This document shows, one piece after another, positions 1 to 44,899 of a DNA stretch of 56,956 bases. A program made the position numbers and the translations under genes. Source of the DNA: a virus (Duplodnaviria > Caudoviricetes); the IMG/VR virus record IMGVR_UViG_3300036791_000660, positions 1-56,956 of that record; one strand, given 5' to 3'. Position 1 is the first letter of the stretch; each line of letters starts with the position of its first letter. The notes beneath the pieces were generated by a model. The model ran no database searches, was not told the DNA's origin, and worked only from the letters and a program-made list of their open reading frames with translations.

Positions 1-545
1 CTAGCCCACCCCCGGCACGACACGGCAGGCGCGGCTCGGACTGGCGCGACAAGGATGGCGAGGAACGCGGGGCCGGGTCAGGCAACGCATGGTCTGGCGT
101 GGCAGGCCTGTCGAGTCTTGGCATGCCGAGACTTCTCCGGGCGTGACTTCGCTGCGCGAGGCGGGGCCGGGCATGGCAGGCGTGGCATGGTTTTGCGGGG
201 TTGGGCACGACGAGCCGAGCCAAGGCATGGCTGGTGCGGCTAGGCGAGGAAGCCAAGGGATGGCCAGCAGCGGCGCGGTGAGGCCGGCCACGGCACGGCA
301 GGTGCGGCGGGGCAACCCAAGGCGCGACGGGGGAGGCTTGGCTTCCCACGGTCCGGCACGGTGAGGCAGGCAAGTCGAGGCAAGACACGATGTGACATGG
401 CACGATGCGGTTCGGCAGGCGCGGCTAGGAGTTCGCGACGAGGTAGGCAAGGCGGGGCTGGGTGCGGCAGGTCTGGCGCGTCGAGGCGAGGGTCGCGGGG
501 CGTGGCGGGGCAAGGCACGCAATCACATGGCACGGCAGGCACGAC
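1..545 (+). ncRNA. Array of degenerate GGY-NN pentamer-repeat units (putative multi-guide RNA precursor), truncated by the window start
   Basis: 5-nt periodicity (ggcgc ggctc ggact ggcgc gacaa...). Units are delimited by GGCAGG at 24, 101, 175, 297, 365, 414, 466 and 534 and by GGCTGG at 229. No credible ORF. The repeat is seen directly; RNA status is inferred. Confidence 0.8.
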
Positions 546-610: not shown

Positions 611-665
611 CCAAGCTCGCCACGCACAGGCGTTGGCGGTGAACAACCTTTCAGGAGACCTTGTG

Positions 666-1457
666 ATGTTGCGGCGTAAATTGTTGATGGCCGTCCTCGG
701 AGTCGTGGCGGCTGGTGGAGCGATGACGGCGGCCGATGCCCTCGCCAAAGGTGGTGGCGGCGGTTCCGGTGGCGGTGGTTCGGGCGGCGGTGGCGGCTCG
801 GGCGGTGGTGGTTCTGGCGGAGGAGGTTCCGGTGGCGGATCAGGAGGAGGTGGCGGCGGCTCCGGCGGAGGCGGGGGTTCCGGCGGTGGTAGCGGCAGCG
901 GGGGCGGTGGCTCCGGTGGTGGCTCGGGTGGCGGCGGAAGCGGCTCGGGCGGCGGCAGCGGCGGAGGCGGCGGATCGGGCGGTGGCGGCTCGGGCGGTGG
1001 CTCTGGCGGCGGTGGTGGCGGCTCGGGCGGAGGCTCGGGCGGTGGAGGCGGCGGCTCGGGCAGCGGCGGCGGAGGCGGCTCAGGCGGCGGAGGGTCGGGC
1101 GGCGGCAGCGGCGGCGGTGGTTCGGGCGGCGGTGGTAGCGGTTCTGGTGGCGGTGGGTCTGGCGGCGGCGGTGGCGGCTCGGGTGGCGGCTCTGGCGGCA
1201 GCGGTGGCGGTTCTGGTGGTGGCGGTTCCGGTGGCGGTGGCGGTGGCGGATCGGGCTCCGGTGGCGGCGATGCTGGCGGTGGCGGTGGCGGCGGTGCTTC
1301 TGGCGGTGGGAGTGCTGGTGGCGGGTCGAGTGCTGGGTCTAGCTCCGGGTCTGGGGCTGGCGCTGGTGCCGGGGCCTCTGCCTCGGGCGCCTCGGGTCCG
1401 TCAGGAGCCGACGGCGTCAACAACGTGAACGAGTTCTTCCGTTCGCGTCGTCGGTAG
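666..1457 (+). CDS. Exported Gly/Ser-rich low-complexity protein
   Basis: AGGAG RBS. N-terminal MLRRKLLMAVLGVVAAGG...ALA signal peptide, then a long GGGGS-type tract with varied wobble bases. Confidence 0.7.
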   Translation: MLRRKLLMAVLGVVAAGGAMTAADALAKGGGGGSGGGGSGGGGGSGGGGSGGGGSGGGSGGGGGGSGGGGGSGGGSGSGGGGSGGGSGGGGSGSGGGSGGGGGSGGGGSGGGSGGGGGGSGGGSGGGGGGSGSGGGGGSGGGGSGGGSGGGGSGGGGSGSGGGGSGGGGGGSGGGSGGSGGGSGGGGSGGGGGGGSGSGGGDAGGGGGGGASGGGSAGGGSSAGSSSGSGAGAGAGASASGASGPSGADGVNNVNEFFRSRRR

Positions 1458-34534: not shown

Positions 34535-34569
34535 GGACAATACCTGTCAATTCGTGTTTGGTGGGTGAA

Positions 34570-34651
34570 GCCGCGCCACGGCAAGTCCCGGCGGGGCTAG
34601 GCACGTCGAGGCAAGGTCTGGCCCGGCGGGGTTCGGCAAGGCACGGCAGGC
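34570..34651 (+). ncRNA. Stand-alone GGY-NN repeat cassette A (putative guide RNA)
   Basis: 15 in-phase pentamers ending GGCAGGC; intergenic and antisense to the late genes. Confidence 0.8.
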
Positions 34652-35715: not shown

Positions 35716-36849
35716 TCAGAGGGTGGTGCCCTGCTGGACCGGCGGCGCGTCCTGCTTGGTCAGCGCGAACAGGTCGAAGGCCGTGGTCCACGCCTCGCCG
35801 GTGGCCTGCCGGAAGCGGCCGTTGTGGTGCATCTCCTGCACCCGCCAGACGCCTTGGAAGACCGACTTGTCGCGCGACGGCGTCTGGATCGCGGCGATGC
35901 CGGCGGCCTTGGGGTTCGGCGTGGTCGTGTAGGGCTGTTGCAATTCCGTCGGCAGCTTCACGAAGTCGAGGCACTGGATGTCGCCGCGCATCATGGTGAT
36001 GATGCTGATCGTGTAGGCGTTCTTCCATGCCGGCTGGCCGATCAGGTCGTTGAACACGATCTGCTTCGGCTTATCGACGCTGCTGCCGCCGGTCGGCGAC
36101 TCGTTCTGGGCGGCGTCGCTGACATAGATCGTCTTATCCTGCGTGAGGAACTGCACGCCGTAGTAGGGCGAGCCGTTGACGCCCTTCAGGCTGGAGAACG
36201 GACTGCCGGGCAGGGTGCCGTTGGTGTACTTCCTGATCCAGTCGCCCATCTCCGACAGGTTCTGGGCCTGATGGAGGACTTGCCCCGGTGTCTGGAGGTC
36301 GTCGCTGACCTTGCCTTTCACCGTGTACGCACCCGCGCCATAGGTGCCATCGACCATCTGCCGGATCGCGCCGACGAAGTCGAAACCGGGACTCCAGTTG
36401 AAGGTCAGCGGCTGGCCGACGAAGCTCTTGGGGTCGATGCTGTCGGCGATCAGCGGCACGATGGTGAAGTCGATGAAGGTCTGGTTGCCGACCCAGTTGC
36501 CCGAGCTTTGCCAGATCGTGCCCTTGACCAAGAGGTCGGGCAGGTACTGGAGCGACAGCGGAAAGTCGCCCTTGGTCATGCCGGCCCAGATCGAGATGGT
36601 CGCGCCTTGCAGGTCGGTGTCCTGCGCCACCTCCCGAATATCGACGCCATAGATGCGAATCCGTCCGCCTTGGCGCGGCAGGTCGTAGGTAAAGACCGGC
36701 AGGTCGATCACGATGTCGAGCGCCGACGAGTTCGGGCTGCCGTTGATCACCGAGGTGTAGGACGCATCCTTGACGCTGGCGGGAAGCGACGACGACTGCC
36801 AGACCTCGGTCTGGCCGTGCTTGGTTATCGCAATTTTGTAATATCTCAC
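35716..36849 (-). CDS. Baseplate hub protein
   Basis: GTG start overlapping the upstream stop; DLIGQPAW, MRGDI and H.GRFRQ..W.T motifs; synteny. Confidence 0.7.
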   Translation of the reverse strand: MRYYKIAITKHGQTEVWQSSSLPASVKDASYTSVINGSPNSSALDIVIDLPVFTYDLPRQGGRIRIYGVDIREVAQDTDLQGATISIWAGMTKGDFPLSLQYLPDLLVKGTIWQSSGNWVGNQTFIDFTIVPLIADSIDPKSFVGQPLTFNWSPGFDFVGAIRQMVDGTYGAGAYTVKGKVSDDLQTPGQVLHQAQNLSEMGDWIRKYTNGTLPGSPFSSLKGVNGSPYYGVQFLTQDKTIYVSDAAQNESPTGGSSVDKPKQIVFNDLIGQPAWKNAYTISIITMMRGDIQCLDFVKLPTELQQPYTTTPNPKAAGIAAIQTPSRDKSVFQGVWRVQEMHHNGRFRQATGEAWTTAFDLFALTKQDAPPVQQGTTL

Positions 36850-37340
36850 GGGCTGATCTCGAACTGGTTGTTGGGCAGCCGGTAGATCAGCGAAGACTCG
36901 AAGAACGGCTTGGCGAGATCGAGCATGGCCGAGATCGTCCCGAGCAGAGTCGCTTGGCCGGGATTGGCCGCCAGTTGGTACTGGAAGGTGGTCGGGCCGG
37001 TGATGAAGACCATCGCGTCGGCCACGTTGTAGGCATCGGGCAGGCAGCCGGCGATGGTGAGCCTGAAGGTGTCGCCGATGCGCAGGTCCTGCGGCACCTC
37101 GGTGGTGCCCGAGACGCGGCCGTTGGCCCACGCCAGCGTCTGAATCTGCAGCCCGGTGCGCGTGCCGGTGAGCGCGCGATGGAAGATCAGGTTGCCGCCG
37201 AGGTCTTGCAGCGTGAGATACCAGCGCTGGCCGAAGATGTTCCACGTCACGCTGGCCGAGTAGACCTGCCCGTCGAGCGTCGGGTTGAAGGCGAACGGCG
37301 GGGCGCCGGGGCCGGGCTGGAAGTCGATGATCGTGGCCAT
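36846..37340 (-). CDS. Baseplate protein with an inserted beta module
   Basis: F.F.PTLDG..Y...VTWNIFGQRWY. Confidence 0.65.
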   Translation of the reverse strand: MATIIDFQPGPGAPPFAFNPTLDGQVYSASVTWNIFGQRWYLTLQDLGGNLIFHRALTGTRTGLQIQTLAWANGRVSGTTEVPQDLRIGDTFRLTIAGCLPDAYNVADAMVFITGPTTFQYQLAANPGQATLLGTISAMLDLAKPFFESSLIYRLPNNQFEISP

Positions 37341-38100: not shown

Positions 38101-39972
38101 TCACAGCGGGAACGGTGGCGGCGCGAACGCCGCCTGTTCGAGCGACGCCACGACCGAGCCGCCAGTGGCATCGTTGATCGTGACGCCGGCACCGCCGGCC
38201 GGCGCGCCGCCGGCGTACATGTTGCCGCCGAGCGCACGCTCGCGCTGGGCCACCATCTGGGCGACGCTGACGCCGGATACCTTATCGGCCCAGCGTGACG
38301 ACACGCTGTAGGGCTGGCCGCTAGCCCACATCGAGAACACGTCGCGGCTGGTGTGATACTTGTTGAGATATTCGTTCACCATGGCGGACGCGATCTGGTC
38401 CTGCATGCCGGGGTTCGACAGGTACTCTTGCGGCGACACGGTGCGGCCGAGCACGCGGCGGCTCATGGTGGCCAGCGTGCCCGGCATCAGTTGATAGGCG
38501 CCGAGCGCACGGCCTTGCCCCGGCACGTTCGCGCCGAGGATGCCGTAGTTGCCGCTGCTCTCGAACTGCTTGATGACCTGAAGAATCTTCTCCGGGCTGG
38601 CGACGATCTCGCCCTCGTGGACGCGGGCGTCCATGTCGTGCGGCACCACGCCGCCTTCTTGGTAGGCCCCGGTCGTGCCGCCCGACGAACTCGACGGCTG
38701 ACCCGACGCCAGCCAGTCCTGATAGGGCATCGGATTGATGCCGAGCTTCATCGACTCCCGCTGGTAGGCGTCATAGCGCCGCTTGTTGATGCGGTCGCGC
38801 TGCCAGCCCGGCATCTCCTCGGTGGTCGGCATGAAGCCGGGATTGCTGCGCAGCAGGTCGGGCGTGCTGGTGGGCGCGGCCGGCGGCGTGCCCGGCGCAC
38901 CCGTGAACCGCGCGATGAACTCGTAGATCGCCTTGCCGGCCTCAAACAGGCCCTTGGCGAACTTCTCGATGTAGTCCGGCAGCTTCTCCATGAACTCCTT
39001 GAACTCGGGCCGCTGCACCCACTCGCCGATCTTCTTCACGAACACCTCGGCGAAATGCTCCAGCGCCGGCAGGAGCGGCGTCAGGCCCTCGGCGATCAGC
39101 TTCCGCAACCGGCCGGTCACATCTTCCAGCGCGTCCTTGAACTCGCTCCACGCCTTCTCGGCGCCCTCGCGGATGCCGTACTTGCCGACGCCCGCCGTGA
39201 CGCTCTGTTCCTGCTTGGTGATGTCGGCGTCGCTCATGCCGACGGCGCGCTGGACATCCTGCGTGCTCAGCACGCCGCTCAGCCCCATCGCCTCCAGTTG
39301 CCCGGCCCACATGCCCTTGTTGACGCCGCCGAACTTGGACTTCAGCGCCCGGTTGAGGCCCCGGATGTTCTGGAACGCGCCGGCCTCGGGATTGAGCCCG
39401 AGCGCCCGCATGCCGATGTAGGCCGGGCTGCCGATGTCGGCCTGCGCGCCCGCGAAGGCGTCCATCAGCCCTTCGACGTTCATGCCGGTGCCGCCCAAGC
39501 CGATGCGCAGTGACTCGATCTGGCCGGGCGCCATGCCGAGCCCGGCGCGCGTCGCCCGCGTGCCCCGGATCGCATCGGCGAGCTTGTCGAGGCCAAATAG
39601 CAGGCCGCCGCCACCAACCGCACCCGAGATGCCGGCCCACCGCATGAAGCCGAGGCTGGCGTCCTTGATGTGGATCGCGAAGCTCTTGGCGTGCTCGCGC
39701 AGCTTGCCCCACGACACCACCGAATCGCGGGCGTGCACCGCCACGTCCTTGTGGTGGGCGACGATCTGGCGGCCGAGGCTGGCCTGCGCCGTCATCGCCG
39801 CCGTCATCCTCGACATATTTTCCATCGCCGCGCGCTGCTCGGCGGTGACGTTCTTCCAGTCCTTCGGCGTCTGCGCCAGCATCTTGGAGTATTTGGCGAA
39901 GGCGTCTTGGAAGCGCTTGAACTGTTGCTCGTTGACTTCAATGTCAACGACTGATTTTGCGTTTACTGCCAC
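38101..39972 (-). CDS. Tape measure protein with a C-terminal lysozyme-like domain
   Basis: GTG start 5 nt after GGAGG; helical body; FESSGNY..ALGAYQLMP.T..QD motif. Confidence 0.8.
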   Translation of the reverse strand: MAVNAKSVVDIEVNEQQFKRFQDAFAKYSKMLAQTPKDWKNVTAEQRAAMENMSRMTAAMTAQASLGRQIVAHHKDVAVHARDSVVSWGKLREHAKSFAIHIKDASLGFMRWAGISGAVGGGGLLFGLDKLADAIRGTRATRAGLGMAPGQIESLRIGLGGTGMNVEGLMDAFAGAQADIGSPAYIGMRALGLNPEAGAFQNIRGLNRALKSKFGGVNKGMWAGQLEAMGLSGVLSTQDVQRAVGMSDADITKQEQSVTAGVGKYGIREGAEKAWSEFKDALEDVTGRLRKLIAEGLTPLLPALEHFAEVFVKKIGEWVQRPEFKEFMEKLPDYIEKFAKGLFEAGKAIYEFIARFTGAPGTPPAAPTSTPDLLRSNPGFMPTTEEMPGWQRDRINKRRYDAYQRESMKLGINPMPYQDWLASGQPSSSSGGTTGAYQEGGVVPHDMDARVHEGEIVASPEKILQVIKQFESSGNYGILGANVPGQGRALGAYQLMPGTLATMSRRVLGRTVSPQEYLSNPGMQDQIASAMVNEYLNKYHTSRDVFSMWASGQPYSVSSRWADKVSGVSVAQMVAQRERALGGNMYAGGAPAGGAGVTINDATGGSVVASLEQAAFAPPPFPL

Positions 39973-39992
39973 GACACCCTCCATTGAGGGCA

Positions 39993-40094
39993 GAGGATGG
40001 CAGCCGTGAAGCCACCATCCTCCCTTGCCGTGCCTCGACATGCCTCAACACGACACGCCCTGCATTGCAGCGCCTTGCCACGTCGCGCCATGTC
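39993..40094 (-). ncRNA. Stand-alone GGY-NN repeat cassette B (putative guide RNA) with 3' hairpin
   Basis: 14 in-phase pentamers (40094 down to 40025), then a GAGGATGG...CCATCCTC hairpin; TTGACA at 40129-40124. Confidence 0.8.
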
Positions 40095-40255
40095 TGATGC
40101 CAGAGACCGCATTGGACAGGAGGTGTCAATCATGGCCTACCCCCGACGTAGCAGTGCCACGAGATGGCGGTGCCGGTAGTCGTGCGCGGTGCGCCACTCG
40201 AACTCGGGCGTGCGGTCGGCGAACACGTCCACGAAGCCCTCGGTGACGATCCAGT

Positions 40256-40831
40256 CTAAACAGGAATGGAAGACGGATTCGCCGTCTCGCCAATACTCAC
40301 GGCCGGCGTCGATGTCGGCAAAGAACTGCGGTAGTCCGTACAGGTGGAGGAGGTGATCCGCGAACCGGACGCCGCGAACAGCGGGTAGATCATGTCCCGG
40401 CGCTCCGAGGGCGTGTGCGCCCACGAAGCTCCCGTAAAAAAAACCAGTTGGTTCCTGATGTTCTGCGCGTCGTCGTCGTTGATCAGCTTGTCGCTGATCG
40501 ACTTCTCGAAGGGCAGCATCTGCCAGCCGCCGCTGCCATCCGGGGCAAGGACGTTGGTCAGTCGCCAGATTTCGGCAAGGAGGTGTTGCTCGACGTTCGG
40601 GCGGTTCATCTTGGCCGCCGCGTCTTGCAGCATCAGGAGGCCCACGCGGGGCATCATGAAGGGGGCGATGCCTTCCTCGTACATGGCCGACATCATGCGG
40701 CTCAGCACGAGGAAGTTCGCCTCGTAAATCTCGCGCCTGACCGGCGTCGAGTGGACGAAGATGTCTTGGCCTTTTTCGTCCGTCACCGTGAAGACGATGT
40801 TCAGCTTGCGGTCGATCTGCGGGTCTGCCAT
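40256..40831 (-). CDS. Tail assembly chaperone
   Basis: Between tube and tape measure; a -1-frame ORF (to 40137) overlaps its 3' part. Confidence 0.7.
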   Translation of the reverse strand: MADPQIDRKLNIVFTVTDEKGQDIFVHSTPVRREIYEANFLVLSRMMSAMYEEGIAPFMMPRVGLLMLQDAAAKMNRPNVEQHLLAEIWRLTNVLAPDGSGGWQMLPFEKSISDKLINDDDAQNIRNQLVFFTGASWAHTPSERRDMIYPLFAASGSRITSSTCTDYRSSLPTSTPAVSIGETANPSSIPV

Positions 40832-40887: not shown

Positions 40888-41340
40888 TTAGGTCTCCCAC
40901 AGGAGCGAGTTGATCAGGACGTAGCCGCGCATCGAGACGCGGAAGCCGGCATCGGTGCCGGAGAACGCCTGCTCGGCGACGTTCTCGATGGCGCAGTTGA
41001 TCAGTTGGTAGATGCCGATGCCGGGCGAGTTGAGCGGCACGTCGGGGTGAACCTGCCCGTCGCCGATCATCGCATCGCTCTCCATCTTGGCCTTGTAGAG
41101 TTGGGCAAGCTGCTGGGTCTTCAGCAGCGCCATCGTCATGGTGAACATCTGGTAGGGCTCGGGGCTGGTGACCGCGCCGGTCATCGACGGCAGGAACACC
41201 GTGGTGCCGCCGTCGAGCGCGAGCCGGATGCCTTCGGCCCCCAGATAGGACGCCGTGACGTTAAGGTCGGGGAAGTCGGGCCAGATGACCGACGCCCGCA
41301 GCCGGTTCAGCGAGCCTTGCGCAACAAGCGGATTCGCCAT
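40888..41340 (-). CDS. Tail tube protein
   Basis: MANPLVAQGSLNRLRAS..LP.MTG.VTSPEPY; follows the sheath. Confidence 0.75.
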   Translation of the reverse strand: MANPLVAQGSLNRLRASVIWPDFPDLNVTASYLGAEGIRLALDGGTTVFLPSMTGAVTSPEPYQMFTMTMALLKTQQLAQLYKAKMESDAMIGDGQVHPDVPLNSPGIGIYQLINCAIENVAEQAFSGTDAGFRVSMRGYVLINSLLWET

Positions 41341-41358: not shown

Positions 41359-43008
41359 CTACGCCGCCGCGACGAAGTCGGTGACGTTGATGTGAAAGAT
41401 GATGTGCTCGAAGCCCCGCGCCGGCGTGTAGACCATGGTCAGCCCGCCGTACTTGCCGATCTTGTAGTCGCCGGGGTTCTTCGACAGGTACGAGGTGAAG
41501 GGGTCGGCATCGACCGCCACCTGCCCGGCGTAGAGGCCCTTGTTCACGTTGATGATGAACTGGTCCTCGGGCAGCGTGAGCGGGATCACCCGGCCGATGG
41601 CGAGGCCGACCGAGATCGCGGTGGCCCCGGTCGAGGCGGCGACCGCCAGCAGGCGGTTGATGCCGTCCTGATTGTAGTAGAGCGGGTTCACCGTGGTGTT
41701 GCTGCCATTGATGATGGCGTTGCTGATGTTCAGGTCGATGTTGATCTGCATCCAATCGACGGAATACCAGTAGTTGAACGGCCGGGCGTCCAGCGTGTGG
41801 CCGAACTTCAGGATGTTGTCGCTGATGCCGCCCTCGGCGCCGAAGCCGACGATGTTGATGCTGGCCGCCTCCAGTGCGTCCATCACCGCTTGGTTGCCCG
41901 GTGACGGGAACGTCGTGACGCCGAACAGGAACGAGTAGCTGTAGGGCGGCACGCGGCTCGTGGAGGACGGGCTGTAGTTCAGCGTCACCCACCACGCGGC
42001 GGCCATCGAGAACTCGGTCGGCGGCACGCCGGCTGACGGATAGACCTGCTGTTGCAGGAAGCCCAGCGTGGTCTCTGCCCCCGGATTGGCGTCGAGCGCG
42101 TAGACCAGCGCCGTGCCGGTGGTGCCGGGTTGGGCGACGAAGGTGCCGTTGTAGGCCGCCGGCACCATGCCGATCACGGTGAAGGTCTGGCCGGGCTTGA
42201 CGGTGTGGTTGGTGGTGGTCTGCAGCGTGACCAGTCCGGCCGACCACGCGGCGCTGACGATGGCGTTGCGCGGCCACGCGCCGTAGCTCGGGGCCTCGAT
42301 CAGGGCGACCACGTCCTTCATCAGCGGCGTGTACGCGGTGTAGCTGCCGAGCGTGGTGGTGACGAAGAAGTAGGTCTTGCCGGTCGGGCTCTCGAACTGG
42401 GCGATCAGCGACAGGAACTCCGGCACCCCGTCCCATTCGCGCGGCACGAGGTAGCTGTAGAACATCTGCGCGTTGTCGTTCATGAACTGCTGGAGGTTGG
42501 CGACGCCCTGCGCCGGCGTGCCAGCCCCCAGTTCGAGCACGTAGCAGCCCTGCTGGAAGCCCTGCGCGAAGAACGTGTTCACCATCGCCTGAAGCTCGCC
42601 GGCGGCCGGCGACGTGAAGGTGCCGACTGTCGTCACCGTGCCCGGATTGGTGGCGAGGTAGTAGGTGAAGGACGAGGCACCGCTGGCCTGTGCCATGAAC
42701 TGGCCGTTGTACTGGGCCGGCACGACGCCCGCGATGGTCACCGGGAACAGGTCGCCGATCTCTGCGCCATGCGGCAGCGTGGTGTTGACCGTCACCTGCC
42801 CGCCATAGGCGGCGCTCCAAGCGAGCGAGGCCATGGCGGCCGGTGGCGCGATGATGTTGGTGAGGTCGGACGGCTGCTGAAGCAGCGTCGTGGAGCCGAC
42901 CGGCAGGACGGTGCCGCCTTGGCTCAGCATCGCTCCCATCTTCTGGAGCGTGTTGGGCGTCGGGGCCTGCGTCTGCGTGACATCGACAAGGACAATGGGA
43001 TTCGCCAT
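41359..43008 (-). CDS. Tail sheath protein
   Basis: FNYWYSVDWMQIN..SNAIINGSN..NPLYYNQDGINRL. Confidence 0.8.
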   Translation of the reverse strand: MANPIVLVDVTQTQAPTPNTLQKMGAMLSQGGTVLPVGSTTLLQQPSDLTNIIAPPAAMASLAWSAAYGGQVTVNTTLPHGAEIGDLFPVTIAGVVPAQYNGQFMAQASGASSFTYYLATNPGTVTTVGTFTSPAAGELQAMVNTFFAQGFQQGCYVLELGAGTPAQGVANLQQFMNDNAQMFYSYLVPREWDGVPEFLSLIAQFESPTGKTYFFVTTTLGSYTAYTPLMKDVVALIEAPSYGAWPRNAIVSAAWSAGLVTLQTTTNHTVKPGQTFTVIGMVPAAYNGTFVAQPGTTGTALVYALDANPGAETTLGFLQQQVYPSAGVPPTEFSMAAAWWVTLNYSPSSTSRVPPYSYSFLFGVTTFPSPGNQAVMDALEAASINIVGFGAEGGISDNILKFGHTLDARPFNYWYSVDWMQINIDLNISNAIINGSNTTVNPLYYNQDGINRLLAVAASTGATAISVGLAIGRVIPLTLPEDQFIINVNKGLYAGQVAVDADPFTSYLSKNPGDYKIGKYGGLTMVYTPARGFEHIIFHINVTDFVAAA

Positions 43009-44720: not shown

Positions 44721-44768
44721 CACTGCACCTCATTGACAAATGTTGGCGGATGCGGTCAGTCGTCGGCA

Positions 44769-44899
44769 GCCACGGCCAGTCGCGGGATGGCAAGGCCTGT
44801 CACGGCAGCGCTAGGCAGCGCCCGTCGTGGCTCGCCACGGCAAGGCGAGTCGGGGAAGGCACGGCACGGGGAGGGACGGCTCAGCGATGGGCCGTCCCT
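44769..44899 (+). ncRNA. Stand-alone GGY-NN repeat cassette C (putative guide RNA) with 3' hairpin
   Basis: 17 in-phase pentamers (44769-44853), a short tail, and an AGGGACGGC...GCCGTCCCT hairpin; TTGACA at 44733. Confidence 0.8.

What the first reader, a model, noticed from the sequence alone, without database searches (positions are those of the whole stretch)
39931..40129. Cassette B encodes the first 14 codons of the tape-measure gene; self differs by GTG start and Ser recoding
Minus-strand NN = AT GC GT AA GC AA AG GT GT GA AT GA AC AA = M-A-V-N-A-K-S-V-V-D-I-E-T-N. The own gene (39972-39931) is GTG GCA GTA AAC GCA AAA TCA GTC GTT GAC ATT GAA GTC AAC (MAVNAKSVVDIEVN), an 11/14 match. Two of the three mismatches are silent: ATG versus GTG start, and Ser AGy versus TCA. 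This is the clearest internal evidence for the code and also supports the true start codon. Residual self-matching could alternatively tune the phage's own late expression.
Basis: partly seen in the sequence, partly recalled or inferred. Interest (0 to 1): 0.92.

Follow-up and report, generated by a model that had tools for sequence, protein, structure and literature searches.

The report
Guide RNA gene beside its target
The repeat upstream of this phage's tape-measure gene is a guide-RNA gene of the recently described VIPR silencing system, and it spells the start of that same gene, which differs from the guide at a few letters; this suggests phages keep a weapon against relatives next to their own resistant gene copy.

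Summary
On the minus strand, 40094-40025 holds 14 five-base units (G-N-C plus two variable bases). The variable pairs match codon positions 1-2 of the tape-measure gene start (39972-39931) in 11 of 14 units. That is the only one of 113,832 window positions scoring 11 or more; the next best scores 7.

The "code" is the published VIPR rule from 2026 preprints: GGY/NN guide RNAs read DNA while skipping each wobble base. Cassette B is therefore a solo vrRNA gene.

Three further solo cassettes (A, C, D) also have their best own-genome match in the adjacent gene. Better matches to two of them lie in other phages. C matches a baseplate-wedge homologue at 12 of 13 units. D matches eight homologues at 10-12 of 13.

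The phage's own copies differ from the guides partly by synonymous Leu and Ser codon-family switches, and in B by a GTG start.

Most likely reading: the guides silence related phages and each sits next to its own resistant allele.

Caveats:
- No Vipr protein gene lies on this record.
- Only 7 of B's 14 units conform to GGY.
- No outside target was found for B.
- There are no expression data.

The parts
40124..40129 (-). TTGACA motif opening the cassette B leader. The same motif, followed after 5 bases by TGTC, opens cassettes A and D.
   Evidence: Sequence read. The consensus promoter scan found 0 sigma-70-like promoters here, so a promoter role is inferred only.
40025..40094 (-). Cassette B repeat tract: 14 pentamers, each a scaffold triplet plus a variable pair. 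This is the guide part of a solo vrRNA gene.
   Evidence: Third base is C/T in 14/14 units and full GGY in 7/14. It belongs to the same element class as arrays that flank a RAMP gene in other phages.
39993..40024 (-). GC-rich hairpin directly after the repeats, the presumed vrRNA 3' tail.
   Evidence: The RNA fold of 39920-40136 gives a 14-pair stem here, z = -4.26 for the whole region. Cassettes A and D carry similar GGGACGG hairpins.
39970..39982 (-). Ribosome-binding sequence GGAGGG (39982-39977) and the GTG start codon of the tape-measure gene (39972-39970).
39931..39972 (-). Near-self target: TMP codons 1-14, matching guide B in 11/14 units and 23/28 bases.
   Evidence: The wobble positions here are unusually A/T-rich: 4 of 12 are G/C, against 0.91 for the whole gene.
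38101..39972 (-). Tape-measure gene, 623 aa.
   Evidence: It lies after the sheath, tube and chaperone genes (PHROGs). Homologues are P0002-P0004.
40137..40831 (-). Tail assembly chaperone (40256-40831) with its overlapping frameshift-type extension (40137-40424). Cassette B fills the 164-base gap between this gene and TMP.
   Evidence: In relative G002 the TMP start follows the chaperone stop directly.
49555..49646 (+). Cassette A: 13 units (49555-49619) and a hairpin (49623-49646). It lies between the protease-like and scaffold-like genes and is inverted relative to them.
   Evidence: Its pairs match the scaffold gene start (49490-49452, minus strand) in 7/13 units, one of only two window positions that reach 7.
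34570..34649 (+). Cassette C: 16 units. Units 1-13 are the guide and the last three are the recurrent ending.
   Evidence: The best own match is 9/13 units at 34420-34382 (minus strand, wedge gene codons 39-51), the unique top of 113,838 positions. The outside target is L143, at 12/13 units.
44789..44853 (+). Cassette D: 13 units. TTGACA lies at 44733-44738 and a hairpin follows near 44871-44896.
   Evidence: The best own match is 8/13 units at 44919-44957 (plus strand, antisense to the 3' end of gene 44900-45406), the unique top. Eight other phages match at 10-12/13 units.
1..545 (+). Array E: a long multi-guide repeat region with one-base phase slips. It runs into the left end of the record.
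   Evidence: Arrays of this look lie beside a RAMP gene in other loci. 'Staggered arrays' are described in the discovery preprint (passages seen).

Best explanation
Cassette B is a solo guide-RNA (vrRNA) gene of a VIPR-type system, inserted between the tail chaperone gene and the tape-measure gene.

How such guides work, as published for other phages: Vipr protein copies line up on the scaffold triplets. Each copy presents its two variable bases. These bases pair with double-stranded DNA while skipping every third base, and transcription is blocked.

Guide B spells codon positions 1-2 of the first 12 to 14 codons of a tape-measure gene. I infer that its real targets are related phages that carry the matching allele, and that binding there would block their tape-measure gene and the tail genes downstream. 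The phage's own allele, 53 bases downstream of the repeat tract, differs at the start codon (GTG) and at codon 7 (both bases). I infer that this spares it.

Shown here:
- the element class;
- the code match;
- that all four solo cassettes sit beside the own homologue of their best match;
- that cassettes C and D have better matches in other phages than in self.

Inferred: expression of B, loading onto a Vipr supplied from off the record or by a co-infecting rival, and silencing itself.
For: (1) The match is real and unique: 11/14 units, 1 of 113,832 positions, next best 7.

(2) It is the same kind of element as published vrRNAs. A motif taken from this window's arrays retrieved at least 120 IMG/VR loci, and 105 of the 120 hold period-5 arrays. 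In 74 of the 120 a ~210-aa gene lies beside the arrays, on the same strand for 125 of 126 arrays. Its AlphaFold model (pLDDT 91) matches Csm3/Cmr/Cas7 RAMP proteins with Foldseek E values down to 4e-6. This is the architecture described in 10.64898/2026.04.26.720920.

(3) All four solo cassettes have their best own-genome, wobble-aligned match in the adjacent gene. In 404 array runs from other phages, the best own-locus match fell within 300 bases in 32 cases against about 31 expected by chance. Only 1 of the 404 reached 70% of units.

(4) Non-self beats self for two cassettes. C scores 12/13 in the wedge homologue of L143 against 9/13 in self. D scores 10-12/13 in 8 of 8 retrieved homologues against 8/13 in self.

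(5) Self mismatches look like escape. The own gene has TTG at 3 of 3 Leu sites where a guide has CT, although TTR makes up 7.0% of 582 Leu codons. It has AGT where guide D has TC, although AGT makes up 2.4% of 415 Ser codons. The self sites of B and D lie among the lowest-GC3 windows (at most 4 of 12; 45 of 7,399 twelve-codon windows); most of the other such windows lie in the hub ORF, whose start is probably miscalled.

(6) The syntenic relative G002 has no arrays and essentially no gaps at the sites of B, C and D, so the cassettes are inserts.

(7) Solo vrRNAs in phages without vipr, with self-match below non-self match, are in print (10.64898/2026.10.15.759431; sections 7, 8, 9 and 17 read).
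Against: - No Vipr-family gene lies on the record: hmmsearch E > 1, hhalign probability below 5%, and a six-frame profile search gave 0 matches.
- B's scaffold is degenerate, with GGY in 7 of 14 units against a median of 0.93 in 442 runs elsewhere. The preprints report base-specific reading of G1, G2 and Y3, and loss of silencing when GGY is perturbed.
- No guide-type TMP start was found. Two exact patterns gave 0 hits in IMG/VR. A 10-unit pattern gave 1 metagenome hit and 2 genome hits, all matching only the 10 required units and none at a tape-measure start. No closer TMP N-terminus exists in GenBank phages or in the protein collection.
- Self-match is 82% of guide bases, above the 80% cut-off that the authors use to call targets. 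They report no self-hit at that level, so self-silencing is not excluded.
- No sigma-70-like promoter was detected, and no RNA data exist.
Confidence: 0.6

Rival explanations
1. Self-regulation. Guide B is meant to bind the phage's own tape-measure start weakly, at 82% match. This would lower or delay transcription of the tape-measure gene and the baseplate genes behind it, which are needed in few copies.
For: The best match known anywhere is the own gene, only 53 bases from the repeat tract. It passes the 80% cut-off used in the preprints. All four cassettes match adjacent own genes. No outside target for B was found.
Against: A regulator should keep a good match. The sister cassettes match self only at 62-85% of bases, while other phages match C and D better. 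The self sites carry rare synonymous codons that lower the match. Relative G002 manages without any cassette.
Confidence: 0.12
2. Relic. The four solo cassettes are decaying remains of guides that no longer work, because the phage has no Vipr and their scaffolds have drifted.
For: No Vipr gene lies on the record. GGY conformity is 7/14 in B, 7/13 in D and 8/13 in A, at or below the 5th percentile (0.64) of runs elsewhere.
Against: The third scaffold base is C/T in 56 of 56 units of the four cassettes. Guides C and D still match outside targets at 10-12 of 13 units. The tail hairpins are intact. The record ends inside array E, so a vipr gene may simply be missing from the assembly. The October 2026 preprint shows working solo vrRNAs in satellites and predicts a similar use of another element's Vipr for VIPR-null phages.
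Confidence: 0.18
3. Plain leader or small gene. The insert acts only as a structured 5' leader that limits tape-measure translation, or it encodes the 56-aa Cys/Arg-rich ORF 40133-39963. On this reading the match to the gene start is incidental.
For: The region folds strongly (z = -4.26). The ribosome-binding sequence and start codon are paired in the predicted fold. The ORF starts 4 bases after the chaperone stop, and its stop overlaps the GTG.
Against: An incidental 11/14 match is excluded by the controls. About 64% of the ORF's codons end in G/C by my hand count, against about 0.9 for the late genes. The five-base period and the family-wide architecture point to an RNA guide.
Confidence: 0.05

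Closest known systems
VIPR systems (Vipr RAMP protein plus vrRNA), bioRxiv 10.64898/2026.04.26.720920, with structures in 10.64898/2026.04.26.720927
   Same: Tandem pentamers of a conserved triplet plus two hypervariable bases, 13-16 units (published range 9-16), followed by a structured 3' part. Targets follow the one-base-skip rule with the skip on the codon wobble, on either strand. Targets lie in genes of other phages.
   Different: No vipr or vap gene lies on this record. The guides are scattered singly through the late structural operon rather than flanking vipr. The scaffold triplets are much more degenerate. One guide matches its own genome at 82% of bases, whereas the authors report no self-hit at 80% or more.
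Solo (orphan) vrRNAs of VIPR-null phages and satellites, bioRxiv 10.64898/2026.10.15.759431
   Same: vrRNA genes without the protein genes. Self-match is lower than non-self match, which the authors read as avoiding autoimmunity. They are presumed to use a Vipr made by another element.
   Different: The published cases are Enterobacteriaceae SUSP1-like phages whose 1-2 solo guides sit in place of the deleted vipr-vap1 genes and aim at vipr genes, other vrRNAs, satellites or host REP elements. Here, in a 66% GC phage found in runs labelled soil metagenome, four guides aim at virion genes (scaffold, a head-tail region gene, tape measure, baseplate wedge). Each lies within about 150 bases of the phage's own diverged copy of its target.
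Class 1 CRISPR crRNA-Cas7 filaments
   Same: A RAMP protein polymerises on a guide and interrupts pairing periodically. The protein found next to such arrays in other phages folds like Csm3/Cas7.
   Different: Pairing is 2 bases in 5 of the guide against 2 in 3 of the target, not 5 in 6. There are no CRISPR repeats, no Cas1/Cas2, and no known way of acquiring guides.
Free-standing homing endonucleases of phages ('intronless homing') and toxin-antitoxin linkage
   Same: By analogy only: a weapon gene lies next to a resistant allele of its own target, so recombination carries both together.
   Different: Nothing indicates DNA cleavage. This is a comparison of population logic recalled from general knowledge, not a tested membership.

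Membership tests
VIPR vrRNA | Tandem five-base repeats, 9-16 units, with a conserved triplet alternating with a hypervariable pair | tested here: met
   B has 14 in-phase units. A has 13, C has 16 and D has 13.
VIPR vrRNA | The conserved triplet is GGY, read base-specifically by Vipr | tested here: inconclusive
   In B, Y3 holds in 14/14 units, G1 in 12/14 and G2 in 9/14 (hand count), and full GGY in 7/14. The median elsewhere is 0.93. The preprint mentions internal degeneracy and variant consensus forms.
VIPR vrRNA | A conserved structured 3' tail after the repeats | tested here: inconclusive
   A GC hairpin follows the repeats in B, A and D. I could not compare it with the published tails, because the figures and supplements were not available.
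VIPR vrRNA | Variable pairs specify a target with one skipped base per unit, usually the codon wobble | tested here: met
   B, A, C and D are all wobble-aligned on coding sequence. C matches L143 at 12/13 units. D matches 8 phages at 10-12/13 units.
VIPR system (complete locus) | A vipr gene (minimal RAMP of about 20 kDa) beside the guides | tested here: not met
   A profile built from 74 array-linked RAMP genes finds nothing in the window. Caveats: the record ends inside array E, and Vipr types too distant for this profile cannot be excluded.
VIPR system (complete locus) | An accessory vap gene | not tested
   I had no vap profile. The Pfam scans of 30 window proteins, which cover the early (plus-strand) genes and five other genes, returned only DUF3799/PDDEXK-like, AAA_24, NADAR, Lar, M15 peptidase and some weak sub-threshold matches; I had no way to tell whether any is a vap.
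VIPR vrRNA | Expressed as an RNA of about 100 nt that co-purifies with Vipr | not testable with these tools
   No RNA run holds the sequence. Only DNA contigs could be laid.
Solo vrRNA of a VIPR-null element | Self-match lower than the match to the outside target | tested here: inconclusive
   Met for C (9 against 12 of 13) and D (8 against 10-12 of 13). For B no outside target is known.

The most novel reading that the evidence does not exclude
The four cassettes are linked 'guide plus immune allele' modules. Each guide sits within about 150 bases of a recoded, resistant copy of its own target. Recombination between co-infecting relatives would then move weapon and immunity together. That would make them a drive-like selfish unit working by silencing rather than cutting. 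A bolder version is that guides are written in place from the neighbouring gene, which would expose the unknown way VIPR acquires guides. The codon-family switches (Leu CTN to TTG, Ser TCN to AGT, ATG to GTG) would then be the natural escape route from a wobble-skipping guide.
Probability: 0.25. Interest if true: 0.85.

Novelty: new variant of a known kind. Interest (0 to 1): 0.6.

Why it matters
VIPR was described only in 2026, and its authors stress that skipping the wobble base defeats synonymous escape. This phage appears to show how escape still happens in nature. The routes are switches between the two codon families of Leu and Ser, an alternative start codon, and unusual local recoding.

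It also shows an arrangement I did not find in print: single guides embedded in the virion-gene operon, each beside the phage's own diverged copy of its target. One guide sits above the authors' 80% self-match cut-off. If this reading is right, it gives a testable model for how guides and immunity spread together among related phages. It also offers a natural set of matched and mismatched target pairs for measuring mismatch tolerance.

Tried and rejected
Chance, low-complexity artefact and ordinary homology were tested as explanations for the match and rejected.

Before finding the literature I considered several other readings: a TRAP-like protein-binding repeat, two-tetrad G-quadruplexes, five-base codons, tRNA decoys, primase sites and a MITE-like insert. 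None explains the wobble-aligned match.

Searches that returned nothing useful:
- Rfam gave no family in the window.
- A first leader-based pattern gave 11 IMG/VR hits, none with arrays.
- A first, faulty parse of C, D and E that ignored GGT units found nothing. It was corrected.
- Array E guides gave no match above shuffles in the window or in G002.
- 274 array runs from other loci gave no own-locus match above shuffles.
- Two literature searches were unproductive.

Relatives of the tape-measure gene were scarce:
- The search for related loci found none.
- The protein search found 3 distant ones.
- An N-terminal search found only self.
- GenBank phages gave 5 weak hits.
- The record holding C's target (G003, 33% complete) has no tape-measure match.

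Expression and read data: no RNA holder was listed. The contigs of two DNA runs reproduce the window, including cassette B, but one run may be the source, and neither showed a variant at B.

A motif search for RAMP G-loop and N-terminal motifs in the six frames gave only short, unspecific matches. Supplementary files of the three preprints were not seen. Their target tables and locus figures may already show target-adjacent or structural-gene-targeting guides. My statement that this arrangement is not in print rests on two searches and on the sections read.
Full report
**What the window is.** The window is one whole IMG/VR virus record of 56,956 bases, classed linear, with CheckV completeness 100. 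It has 65.7% G+C. The minus strand from about 30.5 to 55.7 kb carries a contractile-tail virion module. In order: a protease-like and a scaffold-like gene, the major head protein, sheath (41359-43008), tube (40888-41340), a chaperone with an overlapping extension (40137-40831), the tape-measure gene (38101-39972), and hub and wedge genes (PHROGs). The only runs that hold the sequence are DNA runs labelled soil metagenome.

**The observation.** On the minus strand, 40094-40025 is 14 in-phase pentamers, each a G/T-N-C/T triplet plus two variable bases. The variable pairs equal codon positions 1-2 of tape-measure codons 1-14 in 11 of 14 units and 23 of 28 bases. Of 113,832 window positions, one scores 11 and the next best scores 7. 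The best score in 300 shuffles was 6 to 9. The mismatches are at unit 1 (ATG-type against GTG), unit 7 (AG against TC) and unit 13 (AC against GT).

**The insert.** The 164 bases between the chaperone stop and the GTG are an insert. In a syntenic relative, the tape-measure ATG follows the chaperone stop directly. That relative is G002: 54,636 bases, 65.9% G+C, head protein 86% and tube 72% identical. G002 has no window of ten pentamers with 7 or more G-N-C units, whereas the window has eight such places.

The insert reads as follows: a TTGACA motif, about 30 bases of leader, the 70-base repeat tract, a 32-base GC hairpin, then GGAGGG and GTG. Four more repeat regions exist:
- cassette A, 49555-49619, plus strand;
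- cassette C, 34570-34649, plus strand;
- cassette D, 44789-44853, plus strand;
- a long array E, 1-545, plus strand, which runs into the left end of the record.

**What kind of element it is.** Of these, 105 hold period-5 arrays, in genomes of 33-71% G+C. Many are perfect GGC/NN tracts arranged in multi-cassette arrays.

In 74 of the 120 loci a gene of about 210 aa lies beside the arrays. Its coding strand is the GGC strand for 125 of 126 arrays: 89 lie downstream of it, 23 upstream and 13 overlap its called ORF. Its AlphaFold model (35-sequence alignment, pLDDT 91.1) matches Csm3, Cmr and Cas7 RAMP proteins, with Foldseek E values from 4e-6 and 61 chains at E of 0.001 or less.

[quoted passage not shown] I read its Results, Discussion and Methods sections 18, 20, 26 and 27. 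According to that text:
- VIPR systems consist of a minimal RAMP (Vipr), an accessory gene and vrRNAs of 9-16 GGY/NN repeats with a 3' tail.
- The variable pairs pair with double-stranded DNA, with one skipped base per unit, usually the codon wobble.
- Targets lie on either strand and need no PAM.
- The outcome is transcriptional repression.
- Natural targets are competing phages, satellites and prophages.

A companion structure preprint (10.64898/2026.04.26.720927; abstract and passages) reports that one Vipr protomer binds each repeat, that G1, G2 and Y3 are read base-specifically, and that unwinding runs from the tail-proximal 3' units towards the 5' end.

A third preprint (10.64898/2026.10.15.759431; sections 7, 8, 9 and 17) describes solo vrRNAs in satellites and in 346 VIPR-null phages. 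Some have self-match scores below their non-self scores.

**The sister cassettes.** With a parse that accepts GGT units, each solo cassette has its best wobble-aligned own-genome match in the neighbouring gene:
- A matches the scaffold gene start in 7/13 units, one of two positions reaching 7.
- C matches wedge codons 39-51 in 9/13 units, the unique top; the next best is 6.
- D matches, antisense, the last codons of gene 44900-45406 in 8/13 units, the unique top; the next best is 6.
- B matches as described above.

G002 matches guides B, C and D at the homologous sites: 10/16 for C, 9/13 for D and 8/14 for B (guide A matches the G002 scaffold start in only 4/13 units).

This adjacency is not a general property of such arrays. 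In 404 runs from the other loci, the best own-locus match lay within 300 bases in 32 cases, against about 31 expected by chance. Only one run reached 70% of units.

**Outside targets.** Guide C has an exact 11-unit match in IMG/VR locus L143, inside a wedge homologue (48% identical) at the homologous peptide. That is 12 of 13 units against 9 of 13 in self. The last three units of C do not match there, so they are probably constant.

A 9-unit pattern of guide D found 8 loci. All 8 lie in homologues of gene 44900-45406, at the conserved PSFVDTGLY motif, matching 10-12 of 13 units against 8 in self.

Nothing comparable was found for guide B:
- Two exact patterns gave 0 hits in IMG/VR.
- A 10-unit pattern gave three hits in the metagenome and genome collections. 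All three matched only the 10 required units, and none was a tape-measure start.
- No closer tape-measure N-terminus exists in the collections searched.

These scans required exact matches, so a rival at 80-95% could have been missed.

**Self-escape.** At guide D's site the own protein keeps PSFVDTGLY. The own DNA, however, uses AGT where the guide implies the Ser-only box TC, and TTG where it implies the Leu-only box CT. A further Leu position beside the motif and one in guide C's site show the same CT-to-TTG switch.

In 20 late genes TTR makes up 7.0% of 582 Leu codons. AGT and TCA each make up 2.4% of 415 Ser codons, and 17 of 20 start codons are ATG. Among 7,399 twelve-codon windows of 21 late genes, 45 have 4 or fewer G/C wobble bases. 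These include the self site of D and the tape-measure start. Most of the rest fall in the hub ORF, whose called start is doubtful.

For B itself, the GTG start is a silent-type change. The AG against TCA difference may be a Ser family switch, but AG could also mean Arg. Unit 13 probably belongs to the constant ending. If the guide is units 1-12, both mismatches to self are of the silent type.

**What is missing.**
- The record has no Vipr-family gene. Array E abuts the left end, where a vipr gene would be expected upstream by analogy with other loci. It may therefore be off the assembly, or the phage may be VIPR-null and use a rival's protein.
- B's scaffold conforms to GGY in only 7 of 14 units, against a median of 0.93 elsewhere.
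- No promoter was recognised.
- No RNA data exist.
- B matches self at 82% of bases, above the authors' 80% target threshold. They report no self-hit at that level.

**Verdict.** Cassette B is a solo vrRNA gene of the VIPR kind. Its guide spells the start of the tape-measure gene. The most likely function, at about 0.6, is silencing of related phages that carry the matching allele, with the linked own allele protected by a few changes of silent type. Self-regulation (0.12), a relic (0.18) and a plain leader or small ORF (0.05) remain possible.

The system itself is already in print. What appears new is the placement of single guides beside their own diverged targets in the virion operon, and the codon-family-switch signature of escape.

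Noticed in passing
window 1-545 (+): A long multi-guide repeat region with one-base phase slips at recurring ACGGCAGGC-type junctions. It resembles the 'staggered' vrRNA arrays mentioned in the discovery preprint. It runs into the record's left end, so the assembly may have broken inside it.
   Followed up: partly
window 44903-44960 and 39931-39972 (-): The phage's own copies of the guide D and guide B target sites are among the most A/T-rich wobble stretches of all late genes, with 3-4 of 12 codons ending in G/C against about 0.9 overall. This suggests local recoding beyond the paired bases. I have no explanation for why skipped bases should matter.
   Followed up: partly
window 40100-40136 (-): The ATG at 40133 sits in the same gcc-ATG context as the tape-measure start of relative G002. 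The leader behind it contains an 11-of-12-base likeness to G002 codons 2-5. This may be a remnant of the ancestral gene start left upstream of the insert. A 56-aa ORF (40133-39963) runs from this ATG across the cassette and ends overlapping the GTG.
   Followed up: no
window 49491-49648: Cassette A lies between two genes that together match one 545-position PHROG profile (phrog_6216: protease-like part 6-308, scaffold-like part 317-544). Relative G002 also has two genes there, but they are adjacent.
   Followed up: partly
window 40124-40129, 44733-44738, 49518-49523, 34537-34553, 575-600: A TTGACA-N5-TGTC(A) inverted-repeat-like motif precedes or borders every cassette. G002 has ATTGAC motifs just upstream of its scaffold start. 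This could be a promoter element or a protein-binding site.
   Followed up: no
window 663-1430 (+): An ORF with a signal-peptide-like start followed by about 200 residues of Gly/Ser repeats, directly right of array E. It has no Pfam match.
   Followed up: no
L115:2600-12500: Another IMG/VR phage carries five single vrRNA-like cassettes about 1.3-3.1 kb apart. Each has the same 3' structured part. Three lie 14-37 bases downstream of tRNA-like 3' ends, suggesting co-transcription with tRNAs.
   Followed up: no
L062:8900-10900: A 36% G+C phage has two arrays of six and two perfect GGC/NN cassettes flanking the RAMP gene. A constant spacer separates them, and most cassettes begin with an AT pair. 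Neighbouring cassettes are variants of each other with whole-unit insertions and deletions.
   Followed up: no
window 35716-37245 (-): The first ~130 codons of the called hub ORF have very low G/C at wobble positions and no homology to G002 or to the PHROG profile. The true start is probably further downstream.
   Followed up: no
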